Positions 51,193 through 63,910 of a stretch of DNA of 64,000 nucleotides are shown piece by piece. Numbering within the stretch: position 1 is the stretch's first letter; each line of letters starts with the position of its first letter. Location of the stretch: IMG/VR virus record IMGVR_UViG_3300045988_181996; one strand, given 5' to 3'. This DNA is from a virus. Both the position numbers and the translations under genes were made by a program. The notes under the pieces are model-generated. The model worked only from the letters and a program-made list of their open reading frames with translations. It was not told where the DNA came from and did not search any database.

Positions 51193-54100
51193 TTATTTTA
51201 ATTTAGCACAAGCAGAACATGTACAAAATTTACCATCGTTTATATGTTGCACAGCTAAACTTGCATCTTTAATAGAAATGTCACCACTAAAAATTGGATC
51301 ATTATAATAAGTGGTCATTAATGAATCATTATTATCATGTTGTAAACCAAAAATGTGACCAATTTCATGTTTTAAAACTTTTTCTTTACTAATTTGTGAT
51401 CTAATAGCATCTGTATTCAATTGAACGATATAATTAGCTTTGTTTAATACGTCTTTAGATTTTATACCACTACGTGAATATTTATCATTACTATCAGCAT
51501 CAACTAAATCAACTGTCGATGTTTTAGTCATTAAACCTGCTAATTCAGTCATTTCAAATCCATAATCATCATCTGTATCAACAGATAACCAACCTTTGTC
51601 TACACGAGTTGTTTGATTATCAGAATCTAAAAAAGCAATATCAACATTATCTTTTAAAGAAGTATATGAATAATTGAAAATAATATTATGTTTTTTAAAT
51701 GCTAATTTCCAATCATTTAAAGCTTTATCAACTTCAGATTTTAAAGTTTCATCAGCATAAACTTTAATATTAACAACTTTATCTTTTATTTTTAATTCAT
51801 TATCAACAATTCTTGTTATTAAACTATTATTAGATGCTGAAATTTTTTCAATAGGTTGTGTTGTTTTCACAATTAAAGTATTACCTGAACTTGATTTAGA
51901 ATTTGTTGTAATAGTTTTTACAATTAAACTATTAGCAGAACTTGATTTAATTCCATCAAGTTGTTTAACAACTAATGTATTACCAGAACTTGACTTAACA
52001 CCATCTACACCTTTAACAACTAATGTATTACCTGATGCAGATAATTTCGTAACATCTTTTAATTTTTTAACTATAAAACTAGTATTTGATGATACACGTT
52101 TTAAATTTTCTTTCTCGTTAGCAACATTTGGCAATAAAATTTTGTAATTTAACTTATCCAATAAACCTTGTGCATCTCTTGGTACTCCAATTATTTCAGC
52201 TTTAACATCTTGAAGATTATAATTTCCTTCAGTGTGTGCTTTAACATTTGGTGTATTAACCTCAATAGTATCAACATTAGCATTAACTTTTTCTAATGAT
52301 AGACTAGGTGAACCACCAATAATACCCCATGGGTTAAATAATGAAACGTCAATACTTTGATATGAACCACCATGACCAATACCAACTGTACTTTGTCCAG
52401 TAATCATTACTGAGTTTTCATCTAAGTTAGCACCTGAAGCTAATCCATTAATTTGTGGAACATTTGAATCTAATGCCATGTAGTCGCCACCATCACGAAT
52501 TTTTGGAGCGTCACTACCTGATAATATAATATCTGTATTAGTTCCATAAGTATCTTTATATACATACATTATTTGGTTATCATCAATATCTGAGATATAT
52601 AATGGTGAACGTTTTGTACCTTCTCCAGCACCTTCATCCACACGAACTTCAAATGTTGTCCATAAACCAACTCTCTTATACGGGTTAGCATTTGGATTCA
52701 AATATGCTATTGGTGAAAAATATTTATGACTTGCTAATGTTTCTGTATCATTATATTCTCCTGCAAGCCCACCATTAGTTCCTAGACGCAACGCATTTCC
52801 GTTCTCACCAGTAGAACCACCACCACCATTTGTACCATTACCTTGTAATATGTGACGGTAATAACCTACACCTGTTAATACTTTACCAGTTTTAGGATCT
52901 ACAGATAAATAGTATAGGAACATAAGTCTACTATTCCCTGGTAAATCATTTGGAAACTTACTTCCATGGAATGGCATAGCATGCATTGTTAGTGATAGTG
53001 GATATGTTTTTGGTTTACCATTTTCATCATATGTCACATATGAGTCTTTAAAATCAAATGTAATATGATCTTGATAACTTGCTACTAAGAACACATTCTC
53101 ATTACCAACGTAATTAATATGTTGATTCCTAATATCTGAGAATACAGCTTCTCTATAGATATTATGACGTTGCGTACCAGAAACCCAAGCTCTTGCACCT
53201 ATATAATCCAAGATACCTTGAGCACCACCCTTGAATTTTTGTGAATTGGCAACTTTTCTACCACGCACTGTTACAAAATCATTAATATTTTTGCTCGGTA
53301 CCATGACAGAACCAAATGCACCTTTTAGACCTTTTTCACTATCAGCAATCCATTGTGCAGCTGCAATATTAGCAATTGTTTTACCTTCTTTAGCATACTT
53401 AAGAGTCATATTTGGACCAAGTTCCTGTGACCCAGTAAATACACCCTCTGTACTTTCAGCTGTTTGTTTAAGTGCATCTTCTACATATTTTTTATATTTT
53501 CCTGAAGTGTCTTCACTATAGATTGGACGAGTATTTAACCAAGCTTCATCTATTTGAGTAGAAGTACCACCTTTATCAATACCTTCAATATATTTTTTAA
53601 TTCTTTCAATGTTGTTTTGAATAACAGGTTCTACTTTAGCTAAACTTTCAGCATTTTTAGTTTTTAAATTATCTAATGAACTACCAACAGATGCATTAAT
53701 TTGACTACTTGCATTATCCATTAATTTTTGAATCTCGCTAGTTTCACGACCAATGTCACCGAAATCTAAATTACCAATTGCATCAATTTTACCTACAACA
53801 TTAACTTTAACTCCAGATTCATCAATAGTAGCAATAGCTTTATCAATGTCTTCTAACATTTTTGTTTTAACTTTTTCAGGTTTATCAGATTTTGATACTT
53901 TATCTTTTAATTTAATTAATTCAGCTTTTTGTTTTTCTTTATATTCGTTAATTAATGTACTAGCTTTAGAATTTTTTTCAACATCTTCTTTTACTTTGTT
54001 AGTTTGATTAGACGCACCTTTTAACCAAGTATTAATTAATTCCATATTTTTAACAGCATTATCAGTATATGTTTTAGATTTAACAACTTCTGCTTCATTC

Positions 54101-54903
54101 AACTTACGAATTTCATTTACTTGTTTTAAAACTTCTGCTTTTTTCGATTCAATATCTACTAAAGATTCCACAGAATTATCGATGTTTTTAGTTGTTTTTG
54201 TAATCACATTATCTAATTTTGTTTTTGATGTATTAACCTTCAAACCACTATCTTTAGATACTGTTTCAGCTTTTTCATTTAATGCTTTAACATTTTTTAA
54301 CACACCATCAACATAATGATCATCTAAACTTGTTAAATTAGCTAATTCTTTATTTGCATTAGCAATCGCATCATTATAATTTTTTGAAAACGTAGCTGAA
54401 CTATTTGAAACAGCATGTTCGCTTATTACATTATCATTTGATTCAATTATATCTTTACGTTGTTCAATAATATTATTTAATTTATTCGAGACATCTTTTA
54501 AATTTGTTAAATCAACATTAATAACATCATTATCTCTTTCATTATAACCAATGTTAAACTTTTTAGCGTTACTATCTAAAGATTTAAATTTAACATCTTG
54601 TTTTTCTAATTCATTTAATTTTTTTTGTAGCTCAACTAACTGACGTTTAACATCTTCTTTATTAGTTTCAGTAATAACTAAATCAGTTTTTGCAACTTCA
54701 ACATTTTTATAATTCCTAGAAATATTATTAATTAATTTATTAATTGTATTAATATCTTCTTGTAAATTATTTCCTTCTTTTATAATTTCACCACTTGCAC
54801 CTTTTTCTGTTGTTCTTACAACTTCAGCTTCAGCATTACCAACAGATGCAATTGCTGTAAAACTTGTTAATGCTCCACCTAATAATATTTTTGTTTTTGA
54901 CAT
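51193..54903 (-). CDS. secreted 1236-aa protein with C-terminal metzincin zinc-peptidase domain and SGNTLVVK tandem repeats
   Basis: Signal peptide 'ALTSFTAIASVGNAEA'. 'HEIGHIFGLQHDNNDSLM' (HExxHxxGxxH + Met-turn). Four repeats 'SSSGNTLVVK'. Confidence 0.7.
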   Translation of the reverse strand: MSKTKILLGGALTSFTAIASVGNAEAEVVRTTEKGASGEIIKEGNNLQEDINTINKLINNISRNYKNVEVAKTDLVITETNKEDVKRQLVELQKKLNELEKQDVKFKSLDSNAKKFNIGYNERDNDVINVDLTNLKDVSNKLNNIIEQRKDIIESNDNVISEHAVSNSSATFSKNYNDAIANANKELANLTSLDDHYVDGVLKNVKALNEKAETVSKDSGLKVNTSKTKLDNVITKTTKNIDNSVESLVDIESKKAEVLKQVNEIRKLNEAEVVKSKTYTDNAVKNMELINTWLKGASNQTNKVKEDVEKNSKASTLINEYKEKQKAELIKLKDKVSKSDKPEKVKTKMLEDIDKAIATIDESGVKVNVVGKIDAIGNLDFGDIGRETSEIQKLMDNASSQINASVGSSLDNLKTKNAESLAKVEPVIQNNIERIKKYIEGIDKGGTSTQIDEAWLNTRPIYSEDTSGKYKKYVEDALKQTAESTEGVFTGSQELGPNMTLKYAKEGKTIANIAAAQWIADSEKGLKGAFGSVMVPSKNINDFVTVRGRKVANSQKFKGGAQGILDYIGARAWVSGTQRHNIYREAVFSDIRNQHINYVGNENVFLVASYQDHITFDFKDSYVTYDENGKPKTYPLSLTMHAMPFHGSKFPNDLPGNSRLMFLYYLSVDPKTGKVLTGVGYYRHILQGNGTNGGGGSTGENGNALRLGTNGGLAGEYNDTETLASHKYFSPIAYLNPNANPYKRVGLWTTFEVRVDEGAGEGTKRSPLYISDIDDNQIMYVYKDTYGTNTDIILSGSDAPKIRDGGDYMALDSNVPQINGLASGANLDENSVMITGQSTVGIGHGGSYQSIDVSLFNPWGIIGGSPSLSLEKVNANVDTIEVNTPNVKAHTEGNYNLQDVKAEIIGVPRDAQGLLDKLNYKILLPNVANEKENLKRVSSNTSFIVKKLKDVTKLSASGNTLVVKGVDGVKSSSGNTLVVKQLDGIKSSSANSLIVKTITTNSKSSSGNTLIVKTTQPIEKISASNNSLITRIVDNELKIKDKVVNIKVYADETLKSEVDKALNDWKLAFKKHNIIFNYSYTSLKDNVDIAFLDSDNQTTRVDKGWLSVDTDDDYGFEMTELAGLMTKTSTVDLVDADSNDKYSRSGIKSKDVLNKANYIVQLNTDAIRSQISKEKVLKHEIGHIFGLQHDNNDSLMTTYYNDPIFSGDISIKDASLAVQHINDGKFCTCSACAKLK

Positions 54904-55029
54904 TTTAAACCTCCAATTTATTAAAAAAATAGGGAGAGGTTAAACCTCTCCACCAACCTAATATCACATCAAATTATATTTCAATGTAAATTGTAAAAAT
55001 ACTAATATTTAGAAAAGTATTATATGCAA

Positions 55030-63447: not shown

Positions 63448-63511
63448 TATAGAACATATTATATCACATAATTACACTAAAAACAAGTAATATTAAAAAA
63501 AAAGTAAGAGA

Positions 63512-63910
63512 TTAACTCTTACTTTCTTCTGTTTTTATTTCTACACGTTTTTCTTCTGAAAATTTATCTAATGGTAATTCTTTGTTTAATATTTGGCTAT
63601 AATTATACAATTCGCTATATTTTGTAAATCTTAATTGATTTAATGTATTCAATTTACTAATTAAATCATTCGTATTTTGTAAAAGTATTGGGAACTCTTT
63701 AGCACCTATAGATGTATCTTTTGATTTTTCACTTTGATAATCTTTTACCGTATATTTTTTATTTTTGATGATTAAACCAACATCGATTTCTTCAATAGGT
63801 TTAACTTCTCTAATATATTTATCTGCAACAGTTACTAAAGAATCATCTTCAACATTTTTCAAGACCATATTATCATCAACAAATTTTTTCATATCGTTAT
63901 ATGTTTTCAT
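63512..63910 (-). CDS. hypothetical 132 aa
   Basis: ORF. Another minus-strand ORF continues past the window end. Confidence 0.45.
   Translation of the reverse strand: MKTYNDMKKFVDDNMVLKNVEDDSLVTVADKYIREVKPIEEIDVGLIIKNKKYTVKDYQSEKSKDTSIGAKEFPILLQNTNDLISKLNTLNQLRFTKYSELYNYSQILNKELPLDKFSEEKRVEIKTEESKS

What the first reader, a model, noticed from the sequence alone, without database searches (positions are those of the whole stretch)
51193..63910. Transfer-like operon without a recognisable VirB4 ATPase
A relaxase, a coupling-protein-like ATPase, a VirB6-like protein and a pilin-like protein are present. The only large cytoplasmic protein in the operon (59141-61267, 708 aa) has no Walker A or B, and none of the ORFs carries the VirB4 signature. 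All described conjugative T4SSs have VirB4. So one of three things holds: VirB4 lies outside the window, the 708-aa protein is a highly diverged or inactivated VirB4, or another ATPase (the SecA paralog or the ClpB-like protein) energises the system.
Basis: inference. Interest (0 to 1): 0.65.

Follow-up and report, generated by a model that had tools for sequence, protein, structure and literature searches.

The report
Conjugation operon with ATPase-dead VirB4
The DNA-transfer operon does have its hallmark VirB4 protein (the 708-aa ORF), but it belongs to a widespread, unrecognised branch of VirB4 that has lost both ATP-hydrolysis motifs, so standard tools miss such elements or call them non-conjugative.

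Summary

The ATPase motifs are gone. In the alignments, the canonical P-loop position is taken by an inserted loop. The protein's literal GNDTLGKT sits 11 residues before helix alpha1. The full motif occurs at that site in only 6 of 124 relatives, and the lysine in only half. Walker B "DE" is an invariant "HG".

The same Walker-less VirB4 occurs in more than 120 clusters from 75-270 kb metagenomic elements with conserved gene order. More distant copies occur on S. aureus, Gordonia pGKT2 and Enterococcus pELF plasmids, all annotated as hypothetical. These sit with homologues of the window's ClpB-like AAA+; pGKT2 and the S. aureus plasmid also share its giant VirD4, MobL relaxase and topoisomerase.

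In pGKT2, which is reported to transfer by mating, and in the complete S. aureus plasmid, it is the only VirB4 homologue.

Best reading: a real conjugative T4SS whose VirB4 is a scaffold and whose energy comes from VirD4. About half of this element was not seen.

The parts
63512..64000 (-). 3' part of a gene of about 413 aa for a single-TM (bitopic) membrane protein; it runs off the window end and sits in a VirB8-like position
   Evidence: The frame is open to base 64000. The DNA is 95% identical to L001, where the full ORF is 413 aa with one TM at residues 67-85. The gene is syntenic in L004-L010 and L018-L019. No Pfam or PHROGs hit.
62554..63447 (-). 297-aa acidic protein of unknown role, a conserved member of the module
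   Evidence: BLAST-detectable homologue at the same position in L004-L010. No Pfam hit.
61468..62541 (-). 357-aa acidic coiled-coil protein directly upstream of the VirB4 homologue
   Evidence: Only weak coiled-coil-type hits such as SMC and tape measure. Relatives have a 180-230 aa ORF at this position.
59141..61267 (-). 708-aa cytoplasmic VirB4 homologue with degenerate nucleotide-binding motifs (residues 326-343 occupy the P-loop position; H588-G589 occupy the Walker B position)
55461..59141 (-). 1226-aa polytopic membrane protein (at least 6 TM segments, residues 280-702) with a long low-complexity C-terminal tail; candidate VirB6-type channel subunit
   Evidence: TM scan. It always lies directly downstream of the VirB4 homologue in relatives: 25-29% identity in L004-L010 and the same position in pGKT2 and S. 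aureus. No Pfam, NCBIfam or PHROGs hit.
55030..55344 (-).
   Evidence: TM scan. A 96-104 aa ORF lies at the same place in L001 and L018. No profile hit.
51193..54903 (-). 1236-aa secreted protein with a C-terminal zinc-metallopeptidase (M10-like, HExxH) domain
   Evidence: Pfam Peptidase_M10 E 3e-6 at residues 1075-1201. Conserved downstream of the channel gene in L005-L010 and L018.
48738..51074 (-). 778-aa SecA paralogue (accessory SecA-like ATPase)
   Evidence: SecA_DEAD E 1e-72. NCBIfam SecA/SecA2 models score far below their cut-offs. Present at the same position in L001 and in the 34%-identity relative L018. Absent from the pGKT2 and S. aureus modules.
45607..47739 (-). 710-aa LPXTG-anchored surface protein with SSSPR-51 repeats (candidate mating adhesin)
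   Evidence: TIGR04308 E 2.5e-37, plus an LPXTG anchor with sequence LPQTG.
41684..45466 (-). 1260-aa VirD4/TraG-type coupling protein with intact motifs (2 N-terminal TM segments; Walker A AITRAGKGQT; Walker B LFDEF)
   Evidence: PF02534 E 7e-19, TraG-D_C E 3e-12, NCBIfam VirD4-like E 3e-33. Motifs, TM segments. Homologous over more than 1000 aa to the T4CPs of pGKT2 (E 3e-156) and S. aureus (E 1e-101).
38295..41573 (-). 1092-aa antigen I/II-type surface adhesin
   Evidence: AgI_II_C2 E 3e-22 and Adhesin_P1_N E 2e-7.
36050..37900 (-). 616-aa DUF5906-type P-loop protein (primase/helicase-like)
   Evidence: Pfam DUF5906, with Walker A GPSGCGKS. Homologues lie next to the module in L004, L006, L007 and L019.
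33191..34048 (-). 285-aa MobL-family relaxase (short form; sequence HDTHHIHAH)
   Evidence: Pfam MobL E 3e-14; sequence. MobL relaxases are also present on pGKT2 and the S. aureus plasmid.
30916..33213 (-). 765-aa ClpB-like double AAA+ ATPase (GEPGSGKT and GSTGVGKT), the conserved companion of the Walker-less VirB4
   Evidence: AAA_2 E 1e-21 and AAA E 6e-17. Homologues in L004 (48% identity), pGKT2 (E 3e-85), S. aureus (E 2e-60), S. argenteus (E 3e-37) and pELF (E 4e-42).
27251..29695 (-). 814-aa type IA DNA topoisomerase (Toprim + Topoisom_bac)
   Evidence: Pfam hits. Homologues in the pGKT2 (E 1e-88) and S. aureus (E 2e-13) modules and next to the module in L019.

Best explanation
The block from about 27 kb to beyond 64 kb is the transfer region of a large, low-GC plasmid-like element from a Gram-positive host in human-associated metagenomes; contigs carrying near-identical copies are about 147-260 kb. 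It encodes a monoderm-type conjugative type IV secretion system.

The 708-aa protein is the system's VirB4. It keeps the two-domain VirB4 fold and the usual gene position: after small membrane proteins and directly before the polytopic channel protein. Its nucleotide-binding site has been dismantled. The P-loop is replaced by a longer loop, and Walker B Asp-Glu is replaced by an invariant His-Gly.

I infer that it no longer hydrolyses ATP and acts as a structural platform at the cytoplasmic face of the channel. DNA processing and translocation would be driven by the MobL relaxase and the motif-intact giant VirD4 coupling protein. The conserved ClpB-like double AAA+ is a possible second motor or unfoldase.

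What is shown: the fold, the homology, the motif loss, the conserved gene order and the conserved partner set. What is inferred: loss of ATPase activity, the scaffold role, and that this element actually transfers.

For: Homology. A profile search of 1.84 billion representatives found 115 relatives. hhalign gave family versus second tier at E 5e-36, and second tier versus three Walker-positive proteins at E 6e-44. Those three are mainstream Firmicutes VirB4: pXO2-type, PcpB4 of pCP13, 1256 plasmids. The mixed profile hits the 4AG5 sequence at E 3.6e-8.

Motif loss. In alignments with canonical members and with 4AG5, 'AGxxGxGKS' corresponds to beta1 plus an inserted loop, and 'hhhhDE' corresponds to 'VIMFHG'. 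Among 124 family sequences the Lys position is K in 62, the second Gly is G in 9, and H588 and G589 are 100% conserved. None of 62 second-tier proteins has a Walker A at the site. The window protein has no hhhD[DE] at all.

Selection. There are 123 full-length homologues at 34-99% identity, with 77 invariant columns among 30 sequences.

Context. Gene order is identical in nine related loci with GC of 33-45%. VirD4 motifs are intact.

Partner set. Homologous T4CP, MobL, TopA and ClpB-like proteins occur with the Walker-less VirB4 on pGKT2 and on an S. aureus plasmid.

Only VirB4. HMM scans of every ORF of pGKT2 (182 kb) and of the S. aureus plasmid (55.5 kb) find no other VirB4 homologue.

Function. 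pGKT2 was transferred by mating to three genera (Jung et al. 2011, as cited in PMC5640721). A lysozyme+CHAP cell-wall hydrolase lies about 1-3 kb beyond the window start on a contig carrying the same genes.
Against: No biochemistry exists for any member, so loss of ATP binding is inferred from motifs and from a model whose coordinates I could not inspect.

The window protein itself, with five relatives, has a literal GxxxxGKT, and a strongly conserved GNDTxxxTxT motif occupies that loop. A non-canonical ligand site cannot be excluded.

Only about half of this element was seen: 64 kb plus about 10 kb on each side, out of 147-260 kb.

Transfer of pGKT2 is known to me only through a secondary citation, and helper functions from the host's other replicons are not excluded.

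In pELF plasmids, which also carry a Walker-less VirB4, the genes shown to be essential for transfer are FtsK-type traC/traD and traG in a different operon (PMC13492992). The role of the VirB4 homologue there is untested.

Canonical VirB4 Walker mutants abolish transfer in A. tumefaciens and ICEBs1 (my own knowledge), so a dead VirB4 in a working system would be unusual.
Confidence: 0.6

Rival explanations
1. The 708-aa protein is still an NTPase, or at least a nucleotide binder, that uses a remodelled site. The conserved GNDTxxKTxT loop, which reads as a full GxxxxGKT in this protein, together with His588 would replace the classical P-loop and Walker B residues.
For: G326, N327, D328, T333 and T335 are 94-100% conserved, and Lys or Arg occupies position 332 in 81 of 124 sequences. 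The window protein has a literal Walker A string at the end of strand beta1. H588, G589 and D583 are invariant, which suggests a functional site and not simple decay.
Against: The Lys is replaced by Q, E, G, V, L or T in about a third of family members. The whole motif is absent in the second-tier clade. In the model, GKT lies 11 residues before helix alpha1 (strand 321-325, helix from 344), unlike any P-loop. There is no acidic Walker B residue anywhere. The regex match arises by chance in 4.3% of shuffles.
Confidence: 0.12
2. A canonical, catalytically active VirB4 is encoded elsewhere, either in the unseen part of the element or on the host chromosome or another mobile element. It energises the system, and the 708-aa protein is an accessory paralogue.
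For: Roughly half of the 147-260 kb element was not readable. VirB4 and VirD4 are encoded at distant loci in some systems, for example PAPI-1 and pT33-3, as noted in PMC13492992.
Against: The 708-aa gene occupies the canonical VirB4 slot, next to the channel gene, in every relative. No canonical VirB4 HMM hit occurs in the window plus the 10 kb upstream. Precomputed Pfam families list none among the genes called in the roughly 10 kb beyond the window start. The complete plasmids pGKT2 and S. aureus TUM20888 have no second VirB4 homologue.
Confidence: 0.1
3. The VirB4 energising role has been handed to the ClpB-like double AAA+ ATPase (30916-33213), with the SecA paralogue serving adhesin export. 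The system would then be a three-component motor of VirD4, ClpB-like protein and a dead VirB4 scaffold.
For: A homologous ClpB-like protein with two intact Walker A/B sets accompanies the Walker-less VirB4 in the window, L004 (within about 6 kb downstream, beyond the channel gene), pGKT2, S. aureus, S. argenteus and pELF. In the complete S. aureus plasmid it is the only ORF of at least 120 aa matching the [AG]xxxxGK[STG] pattern.
Against: Co-occurrence is not mechanism. Clp-type AAA+ proteins act on proteins and have no known T4SS role. Generic Clp paralogues are common on plasmids, so database-wide co-occurrence is not informative. I did not establish whether relatives with a Walker-positive VirB4 also carry this ATPase. 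The SecA paralogue is restricted to the window's sub-lineage.
Confidence: 0.25
4. The module is not, or is no longer, a DNA-conjugation machine. It could be a decaying T4SS remnant, or one repurposed for adhesion or protein export.
For: Three large surface or adhesin proteins and a SecA paralogue are embedded in the operon. MOB-suite types the isolate plasmids as non-mobilizable or only mobilizable. The relaxase is short at 285 aa.
Against: All genes are intact, and they are conserved in order and length across many divergent elements. Relaxase, T4CP with intact motifs, topoisomerase, SSB and a nearby cell-wall hydrolase are all present. pGKT2, which carries the same core set, is reported to transfer by mating. 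Surface adhesins are normal parts of Gram-positive conjugation systems (PMC12857230).
Confidence: 0.08

Closest known systems
Gram-positive (MPF-FATA type) VirB4 ATPases: pXO2/pAW63-type VirB4, PcpB4 of C. perfringens pCP13, and the T. pseudethanolicus VirB4 C-terminal domain (PDB 4AG5/4AG6)
   Different: No direct Pfam, NCBIfam or PDB sequence hit. An inserted loop interrupts the P-loop, and the Lys is not conserved. Walker B DE is replaced by an invariant HG. [quoted passage not shown]
TrwK (VirB4) of plasmid R388, cryo-EM structures 7O42/7O43/8RTD
   Same: Best full-length structural match, 677-709 aligned columns covering the N- and C-terminal domains, E 5e-12 to 1e-10.
   Different: 10-12% identity, and hhalign against the single TrwK sequence finds nothing. 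TrwK belongs to a diderm system with VirB2-B11 partners and has GQSSSGKT.
Transfer region of Gordonia sp. KTR9 plasmid pGKT2 (NC_018580), and the S. aureus TUM20888 55.5-kb plasmid (NZ_CP150776)
   Same: Same core set by BLAST. Walker-less VirB4 homologue: E 5e-18 and 2e-12. Giant VirD4: E 3e-156 and 1e-101. ClpB-like AAA+: E 3e-85 and 2e-60. Type IA topoisomerase. MobL relaxase. A large polytopic protein follows the VirB4 homologue, and a lysozyme-type hydrolase is present.
   Different: Only 22-23% identity in the VirB4 homologue. Different gene order. No SecA paralogue and no AgI/II or SSSPR-51 adhesins. Hosts are an actinobacterium and a staphylococcus. The proteins are annotated as hypothetical, and the plasmids are typed as mobilizable or non-mobilizable.
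pELF-type linear plasmids of Enterococcus faecium (tra operon traC/traD/traG; PMC13492992)
   Same: They carry a member of the same Walker-less VirB4 clade (652 aa, clade HMM E 1e-109) beside a homologous ClpB-like AAA+ and a lysozyme.
   Different: The experimentally essential motor genes there are FtsK-family traC (420 aa, called a VirB4 'analog' without homology) and traD, in another operon. The window has a VirD4/TraG-type coupling protein. No FtsK/SpoIIIE family appeared in Pfam scans of most ORFs of at least 100 aa. The paper does not mention the 652-aa VirB4 homologue.
[not shown]
   Same: Same superfamily fold. These are a precedent for catalytically weak or dead domains kept as structural or regulatory modules beside an active motor.
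   Different: In EccC the degenerate domains are fused to an active one in a single polypeptide and still bind nucleotide. Here the whole VirB4 subunit lacks the motifs.

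Membership tests
VirB4 (T4SS ATPase) family | Two-domain architecture: VirB4 N-terminal domain plus a RecA/FtsK-HerA-like C-terminal domain with the VirB4-specific fold | tested here: met
   [not shown]
VirB4 (T4SS ATPase) family | Sequence homology to recognised VirB4 families | tested here: met
   Direct searches fail: Pfam, NCBIfam, PHROGs, PDB phmmer/hmmsearch, and hhalign against single TrwK and TcpF sequences. Homology is significant through a profile chain. Family to second tier is E 5e-36, and second tier to Walker-positive pXO2/PcpB4-type VirB4 is E 6e-44. 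The mixed profile against the 4AG5 sequence gives E 3.6e-8.
VirB4 (T4SS ATPase) family | Walker A P-loop GxxGxGK[ST] leading directly into helix alpha1 | tested here: not met
   The canonical P-loop aligns to strand beta1 plus an inserted loop. The window's GNDTLGKT lies 11 residues before the helix. At this site the full pattern occurs in 6 of 124 family sequences and Lys in 62 of 124. It is absent in all 62 second-tier proteins.
VirB4 (T4SS ATPase) family | Walker B hhhhDE | tested here: not met
   The aligned position reads VIMFHG, with H588 and G589 invariant in 124 of 124 sequences. There is no hhhD[DE] anywhere in the protein.
VirB4 (T4SS ATPase) family | Encoded within the mating-pair-formation gene cluster, next to small TM proteins and the polytopic channel gene | tested here: met
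   Gene order is HTH, a W-rich hydrophobic protein (276 aa), a TM protein (413 aa), a 297-aa protein, a 357-aa protein, VirB4-like, a protein with at least 6 TM segments, and a 104-aa protein with 2 TM segments. This order is conserved in L001, L004-L010, L018 and L019.
VirB4 (T4SS ATPase) family | ATP hydrolysis and oligomerisation at the channel base | not testable with these tools
   This needs purified protein or in situ structures.
Conjugative T4SS of monoderm bacteria | Relaxase | tested here: met
   MobL Pfam E 3e-14 at 33191-34048, with a His-rich HDTHHIHAH motif.
Conjugative T4SS of monoderm bacteria | VirD4/TraG-type coupling protein with intact NTP-binding motifs | tested here: met
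   PF02534, TraG-D_C and NCBIfam VirD4-like hits. Two N-terminal TM segments. AITRAGKGQT and LFDEF motifs, also conserved in the S. aureus homologue.
Conjugative T4SS of monoderm bacteria | VirB6-like polytopic channel protein | tested here: inconclusive
   At least 6 TM segments and a conserved position, but no profile hit. No usable alignment could be obtained for structure prediction.
Conjugative T4SS of monoderm bacteria | VirB1-like cell-wall hydrolase | tested here: inconclusive
   No peptidoglycan-hydrolase domain was found in the ORFs scanned. The 1236-aa protein has an M10-like peptidase. A 654-aa Phage_lysozyme2+CHAP protein lies about 1-3 kb beyond the window start on contig ZHAN15-1 scaffold_21, which carries the same genes.
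Conjugative T4SS of monoderm bacteria | Demonstrated cell-to-cell DNA transfer | not testable with these tools
   The only evidence is indirect. pGKT2, a distant relative with the same core set, was transferred by mating (Jung et al. 2011, cited in PMC5640721).
pELF-type minimal FtsK-motor conjugation system (traC/traD/traG) | FtsK/SpoIIIE-family TraD and TraC motor proteins | tested here: not met
   No FtsK/SpoIIIE domain appeared among the window proteins scanned. The Walker A proteins in the window are the ClpB-like, DUF5906 and SecA-like proteins plus VirD4.

The most novel reading that the evidence does not exclude
A whole, widespread lineage of Gram-positive and actinobacterial conjugation systems works with a VirB4 that has permanently lost ATP hydrolysis. 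The lineage spans 75-270 kb gut or oral metagenomic elements, staphylococcal and Gordonia/Rhodococcus plasmids, and probably the clinically important pELF linear plasmids. If so, VirB4's essential contribution to type IV secretion is architectural. Its motor role can be dispensed with, or is taken over by the giant VirD4 and/or a dedicated ClpB-like AAA+. VirB4-profile-based tools would then systematically mislabel these self-transmissible elements as non-conjugative.
Probability: 0.4. Interest if true: 0.85.

Novelty: new variant of a known kind. Interest (0 to 1): 0.7.

Why it matters
[quoted passage not shown] As far as I know, profile-based tools such as CONJScan rely on it as their conjugation marker. 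Its ATPase is generally regarded as essential.

A natural clade that keeps the fold but has lost both Walker motifs offers three things:
- A ready-made separation-of-function experiment for what VirB4 does structurally versus energetically.
- An explanation for why large Gram-positive and actinobacterial plasmids are typed as 'non-mobilizable' or merely 'mobilizable'. Among these, pGKT2 and the pELF plasmids are known to transfer.
- A new profile for finding such elements in isolates and metagenomes.

It also identifies a true VirB4 homologue on pELF vancomycin-resistance plasmids that the first genetic study of their transfer did not consider.

Tried and rejected
Direct searches with the 708-aa protein or its family profile found nothing. 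These were Pfam, NCBIfam, PHROGs, PDB sequences, and hhalign against single TrwK and TcpF sequences. Only the fold search and the profile chain worked.

Megablast of 8 kb against PLSDB, and tblastn against phage genomes, found nothing.

A phage origin was considered because six relatives sit in IMG/VR. I set it aside because 20 window proteins gave no phage hallmark in PHROGs, only weak coiled-coil-type noise.

Single-protein scans of viral contigs with VirD4 and the ClpB-like protein found nothing and wasted two scans.

pWBG4-family staphylococcal plasmids were considered as the known counterpart. I rejected this because they have a different det cluster with a MobC relaxase.

pELF transfer was considered as functional evidence. 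I rejected this because the proven essential genes lie in a different, FtsK-type operon.

Plasmid-wide co-occurrence of the ClpB-like protein with the Walker-less VirB4 was uninformative, because generic ClpL/ClpK/ClpA paralogues swamp the hits.

Structure tests failed for lack of homologues: one hit for the channel protein and two for the C-terminal fragment of the 413-aa protein. The afdb50 fold library was unavailable.

Full report
**What is in the window**

The window has about 27% GC. From about 27.2 kb to its right end it carries an unbroken run of minus-strand genes. Profile searches identify the following, in order of increasing window coordinate, which is the reverse of the transcription order:
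- a type IA topoisomerase (27251-29695)
- a ClpB-like double AAA+ ATPase (30916-33213)
- a MobL relaxase (33191-34048)
- a DUF5906 P-loop protein (36050-37900)
- an antigen I/II adhesin (38295-41573)
- a VirD4/TraG-type coupling protein (41684-45466)
- an LPXTG SSSPR-51 surface protein (45607-47739)
- a SecA paralogue (48738-51074)
- a secreted 1236-aa protein with an M10-like metallopeptidase end (51193-54903)

Five further ORFs have no profile hit at all: 104, 1226, 708, 357 and 297 aa. A hydropathy scan gives at least 6 TM segments in the 1226-aa protein, 2 in the 104-aa protein, 2 at the N-terminus of VirD4 and none in the 708-aa protein.

The relaxase, the coupling protein and the ClpB-like gene lie outside 51193-63910. 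The last 'ORF' (63512-63910) is the tail of a gene of about 413 aa whose frame is open to base 64000.

**Is the 708-aa protein VirB4?**

By direct sequence search, no. Pfam, NCBIfam, PHROGs and PDB sequences, with the single sequence or the family profile, return nothing. hhalign against single TrwK and TcpF sequences also returns nothing.

The protein does have more than 120 homologue clusters of 660-720 aa at 34-99% identity. None has a Pfam domain, and nearly all come from metagenome assemblies on contigs up to 272 kb.

An AlphaFold2 model built on 30 of these sequences has mean pLDDT 75.6, and 80-94 over most of the C-terminal domain.
- Foldseek against the PDB puts TrwK/VirB4 of R388 first. 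E is 4.9e-12 with 677-709 aligned columns, so both domains are covered. The VirB4 C-terminal domain of T. pseudethanolicus follows with TM 0.65 on the target.

**Sequence-level confirmation**

A profile search of 1.84 billion representative proteins found 115 relatives in two tiers. The first tier is the family itself. The second tier holds 610-913 aa proteins at E 1e-26 to 1e-5.

At the very tail sit three proteins with GxxGxGKS and hhhIDE. Their Pfam hits are DUF87, P-loop_TraG, TraC_F_IV, AAA_10 and CagE_TrbE_VirB. One of them (P0228) matches 1256 plasmids: pXO2-type VirB4, 'VirB4-like ATPase PcpB4' of pCP13, and enterococcal and Listeria plasmids. It is therefore mainstream Gram-positive VirB4.

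Local hhalign gives family versus second tier at probability 99.9 and E 5e-36. Second tier versus the canonical trio gives probability 100 and E 6e-44. A profile of the mixed alignment hits the sequence of the solved VirB4 4AG5 at E 3.6e-8 over 374 positions. Homology to VirB4 is thus supported by fold and by sequence.

**The catalytic motifs are gone**

Three independent alignments agree: MAFFT with the canonical trio, hhalign, and HMMER against 4AG5.
- The canonical '...IxAGxxGxGKS' corresponds to strand beta1 ('SLFVG') followed by an inserted, variable loop. Helix alpha1 comes only after that loop.
- Walker B ('VLVVDE' in 4AG5) corresponds to 'VIMFHG'.

In the model, the strand is residues 321-325 and the helix starts at 344.

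The window protein does contain GNDTLGKT at 326-333, so 'no Walker A' is literally wrong. The conservation at this site across 124 family sequences is:

| Position | Conservation |
|---|---|
| G326, N327, D328 | 100%, 98%, 94% |
| T333, T335 | 95%, 96% |
| Second glycine (331) | G in only 9 |
| Lysine (332) | K in 62; otherwise R, Q, E, G, V, L, T |
| H588, G589 | invariant |

The full pattern occurs at this site in only 6 of the 124 sequences. Such a pattern arises in 4.3% of shuffles of this protein. No hhhD[DE] exists anywhere in the protein. None of the 62 full-length second-tier proteins has a Walker A at the site. The shared HG suggests one ancestral loss; that is inference.

Intact length in all relatives and 77 invariant columns among 30 sequences argue for purifying selection on a non-catalytic function.

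**Is a canonical VirB4 nearby?**

A contig 99% identical over this gene (L001) supplies 10 kb beyond the window end. The operon starts there with an HTH gene, a 276-aa W-rich hydrophobic protein and the 413-aa single-TM protein. Before it lie divergent genes, including thymidylate kinase and an SNF2 helicase.

HMMs built from canonical VirB4 sequences hit nothing in the window or in that upstream stretch. The HMM of the Walker-less clade hits only the 708-aa ORF. The Walker A pattern occurs in the window only in the ClpB-like, DUF5906 and SecA-like proteins, by chance in the adhesin, and in the TraG-type form in VirD4.

Beyond the window start, a 170-kb contig with the same genes carries a 654-aa lysozyme+CHAP hydrolase, the usual Gram-positive VirB1 equivalent. 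The Pfam families precomputed for its genes list no VirB4. Roughly half of the element remains unseen.

**Conserved module and relatives in isolates**

The order HTH, 276-aa protein, 413-aa TM protein, 297-aa protein, short coiled-coil protein, VirB4-like, polytopic protein of about 1200 aa recurs in nine other loci. The small TM protein and the large secreted protein that follow are present in only some of them. These loci have 33-45% GC:
- a rabbit-gut Clostridia MAG contig of 182 kb
- six IMG/VR contigs of 75-234 kb
- two further assemblies

tblastn against PLSDB finds distant copies at 22-24% identity, all annotated as hypothetical protein:
- an S. aureus 55.5-kb plasmid
- S. argenteus p2
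- Gordonia pGKT2
- a Rhodococcus fascians plasmid
- a Streptomyces plasmid

The Gordonia protein in turn finds 168 plasmids. About 100 of them are E. faecium records; the one inspected (pELF_GK941) is a pELF-type linear plasmid.

pGKT2 and the S. aureus plasmid carry BLAST-level homologues of five window proteins:

| Window protein | pGKT2 | S. aureus plasmid |
|---|---|---|
| VirB4-like | E 5e-18 | E 2e-12 |
| Giant VirD4 | E 3e-156 | E 1e-101 |
| ClpB-like AAA+ | E 3e-85 | E 2e-60 |
| Topoisomerase | E 1e-88 | E 2e-13 |
| MobL relaxase | annotated relaxase MobL | E 6e-7 |

Scanning every ORF of both complete plasmids with VirB4 HMMs finds only the Walker-less protein (E 3.7e-30 and 3.3e-34). 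Pfam on ten other large pGKT2 proteins shows no VirB4-type domain.

MOB-suite types these plasmids as mobilizable or non-mobilizable. Yet pGKT2 was transferred by mating to Gordonia, Rhodococcus and Nocardia (Jung et al. 2011, as cited in PMC5640721).

**How it most likely works**

*Shown:* a complete-looking monoderm conjugation gene set, with a motif-intact VirD4 (AITRAGKGQT, LFDEF) and a VirB4 that has the fold but not the catalytic residues.

*Inferred:* VirB4 here is a structural platform at the channel base. VirD4 supplies the energy for DNA transfer. The ClpB-like AAA+ accompanies the Walker-less VirB4 in six lineages and may add a second motor or unfoldase activity. The SecA paralogue is present only in the window's sub-lineage, so it more probably serves export of the large adhesins.

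*Caveats:*
- There is no biochemistry for any member.
- The conserved GNDTxxxT loop and the invariant HG could form a new ligand site.
- The evidence for pGKT2 transfer is second-hand.
- In pELF plasmids the genes proven essential are FtsK-type traC/traD and traG in another operon (PMC13492992). pELF transfer therefore cannot be credited to this module.

**Comparison with the literature**

The 2026 pELF study names an FtsK-family protein as a VirB4 'analog' without homology. It does not mention the 652-aa true homologue.

Searches combining VirB4 with 'pseudo-ATPase', 'degenerate' or Walker loss returned nothing describing this clade. The searchable library is incomplete, so prior description cannot be ruled out.

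**Verdict**

- The headline 'no VirB4' is wrong.
- I class it as a new variant of a known kind and score interest at 0.7.

Noticed in passing
L020 (E. faecium pELF_GK941, NZ_AP026662) 17515-19473; also L013 (S. argenteus p2) 13004-15070: pELF-type linear vancomycin-resistance plasmids carry a 652-aa member of the Walker-less VirB4 clade next to a ClpB-like AAA+ and a lysozyme. The 2026 genetic study of pELF2 transfer (PMC13492992) tested a different, FtsK-type operon and does not mention this protein.
   Followed up: partly
L022 14552-16516 (ENA ERZ28663480 scaffold_21, about 1-3 kb beyond window position 1): A 654-aa Phage_lysozyme2+CHAP protein, the usual Gram-positive T4SS cell-wall hydrolase, lies just outside the window. 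A gene of at least 1264 aa follows it and runs off the locus.
   Followed up: partly
window 48738-51074; L001 20318-22124; L018 20396-22049: A SecA paralogue is embedded in the transfer operon. It scores far below the NCBIfam SecA/SecA2 cut-offs. It is conserved at the same position in a relative whose VirB4 homologue is only 34% identical, but it is absent from the pGKT2 and Staphylococcus modules. No SecY2-type partner was seen.
   Followed up: partly
window 38-1276 and 11924-13102: Two TnpB/IS605 OrfB-type (Cas12f-like TNB domain) genes lie on the minus strand. A third copy lies just beyond the window start on the related contig (L022 12549-13736).
   Followed up: no
window 9970-11463: A 497-aa SPFH/flotillin-like protein (Band_7 + Flot) sits within a run of six minus-strand ORFs (2739-9503) that have no Pfam or PHROGs match.
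   Followed up: no
window 17072-26000 (+ strand): This is the only plus-strand block, made of small genes. It includes an SSB (23311-23742) and an RNase H-like RVT_3 protein (21173-21700); the rest have no family match. It might be a leading-region or establishment module.
   Followed up: no
L005-L010 (IMG/VR contigs of 75-234 kb): Relatives of this element are catalogued as viral genomes in IMG/VR. Yet 20 window proteins gave no phage hallmark in PHROGs, and the 708-aa protein has no match in 50,697 phage records. They look like misfiled plasmid-like elements.
   Followed up: partly
L019 21135-21548 (NCBI GCA_037193285.1, 236-kb contig): A 137-aa protein with a faint TrbC (VirB2-type pilin) Pfam hit lies next to the topoisomerase in one relative of the module. 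A pilin would be unusual in a monoderm system.
   Followed up: no
window 59141-61267, protein residues 254-311: The most conserved sequence motif of the family (VDSGGDRxxGSEYVGxSVGKxIxSHAAY, residues 288-315) falls largely in the lowest-confidence part of the model (pLDDT below 50 for 289-311). It may be a partner-binding loop and not part of the fold core.
   Followed up: no
window 55461-57000 (C-terminal half of the 1226-aa protein) and the ORFs listed within it (56276-56620 on the same strand; 56296-57636 antisense): The C-terminal 500 or so residues of the channel-position protein are a low-complexity Lys/Glu/Asn/Ser-rich tail. The short ORFs listed inside this stretch look like by-products of the composition.
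   Followed up: no
L012/L014/L015 (pGKT2): pGKT2 carries three AAA+ proteins: one of 703 aa with a single Walker A pattern, and two double-AAA+ proteins of 588/624 and 647 aa. Only the 624-aa ORF is a close homologue of the window's ClpB-like protein.
   Followed up: no
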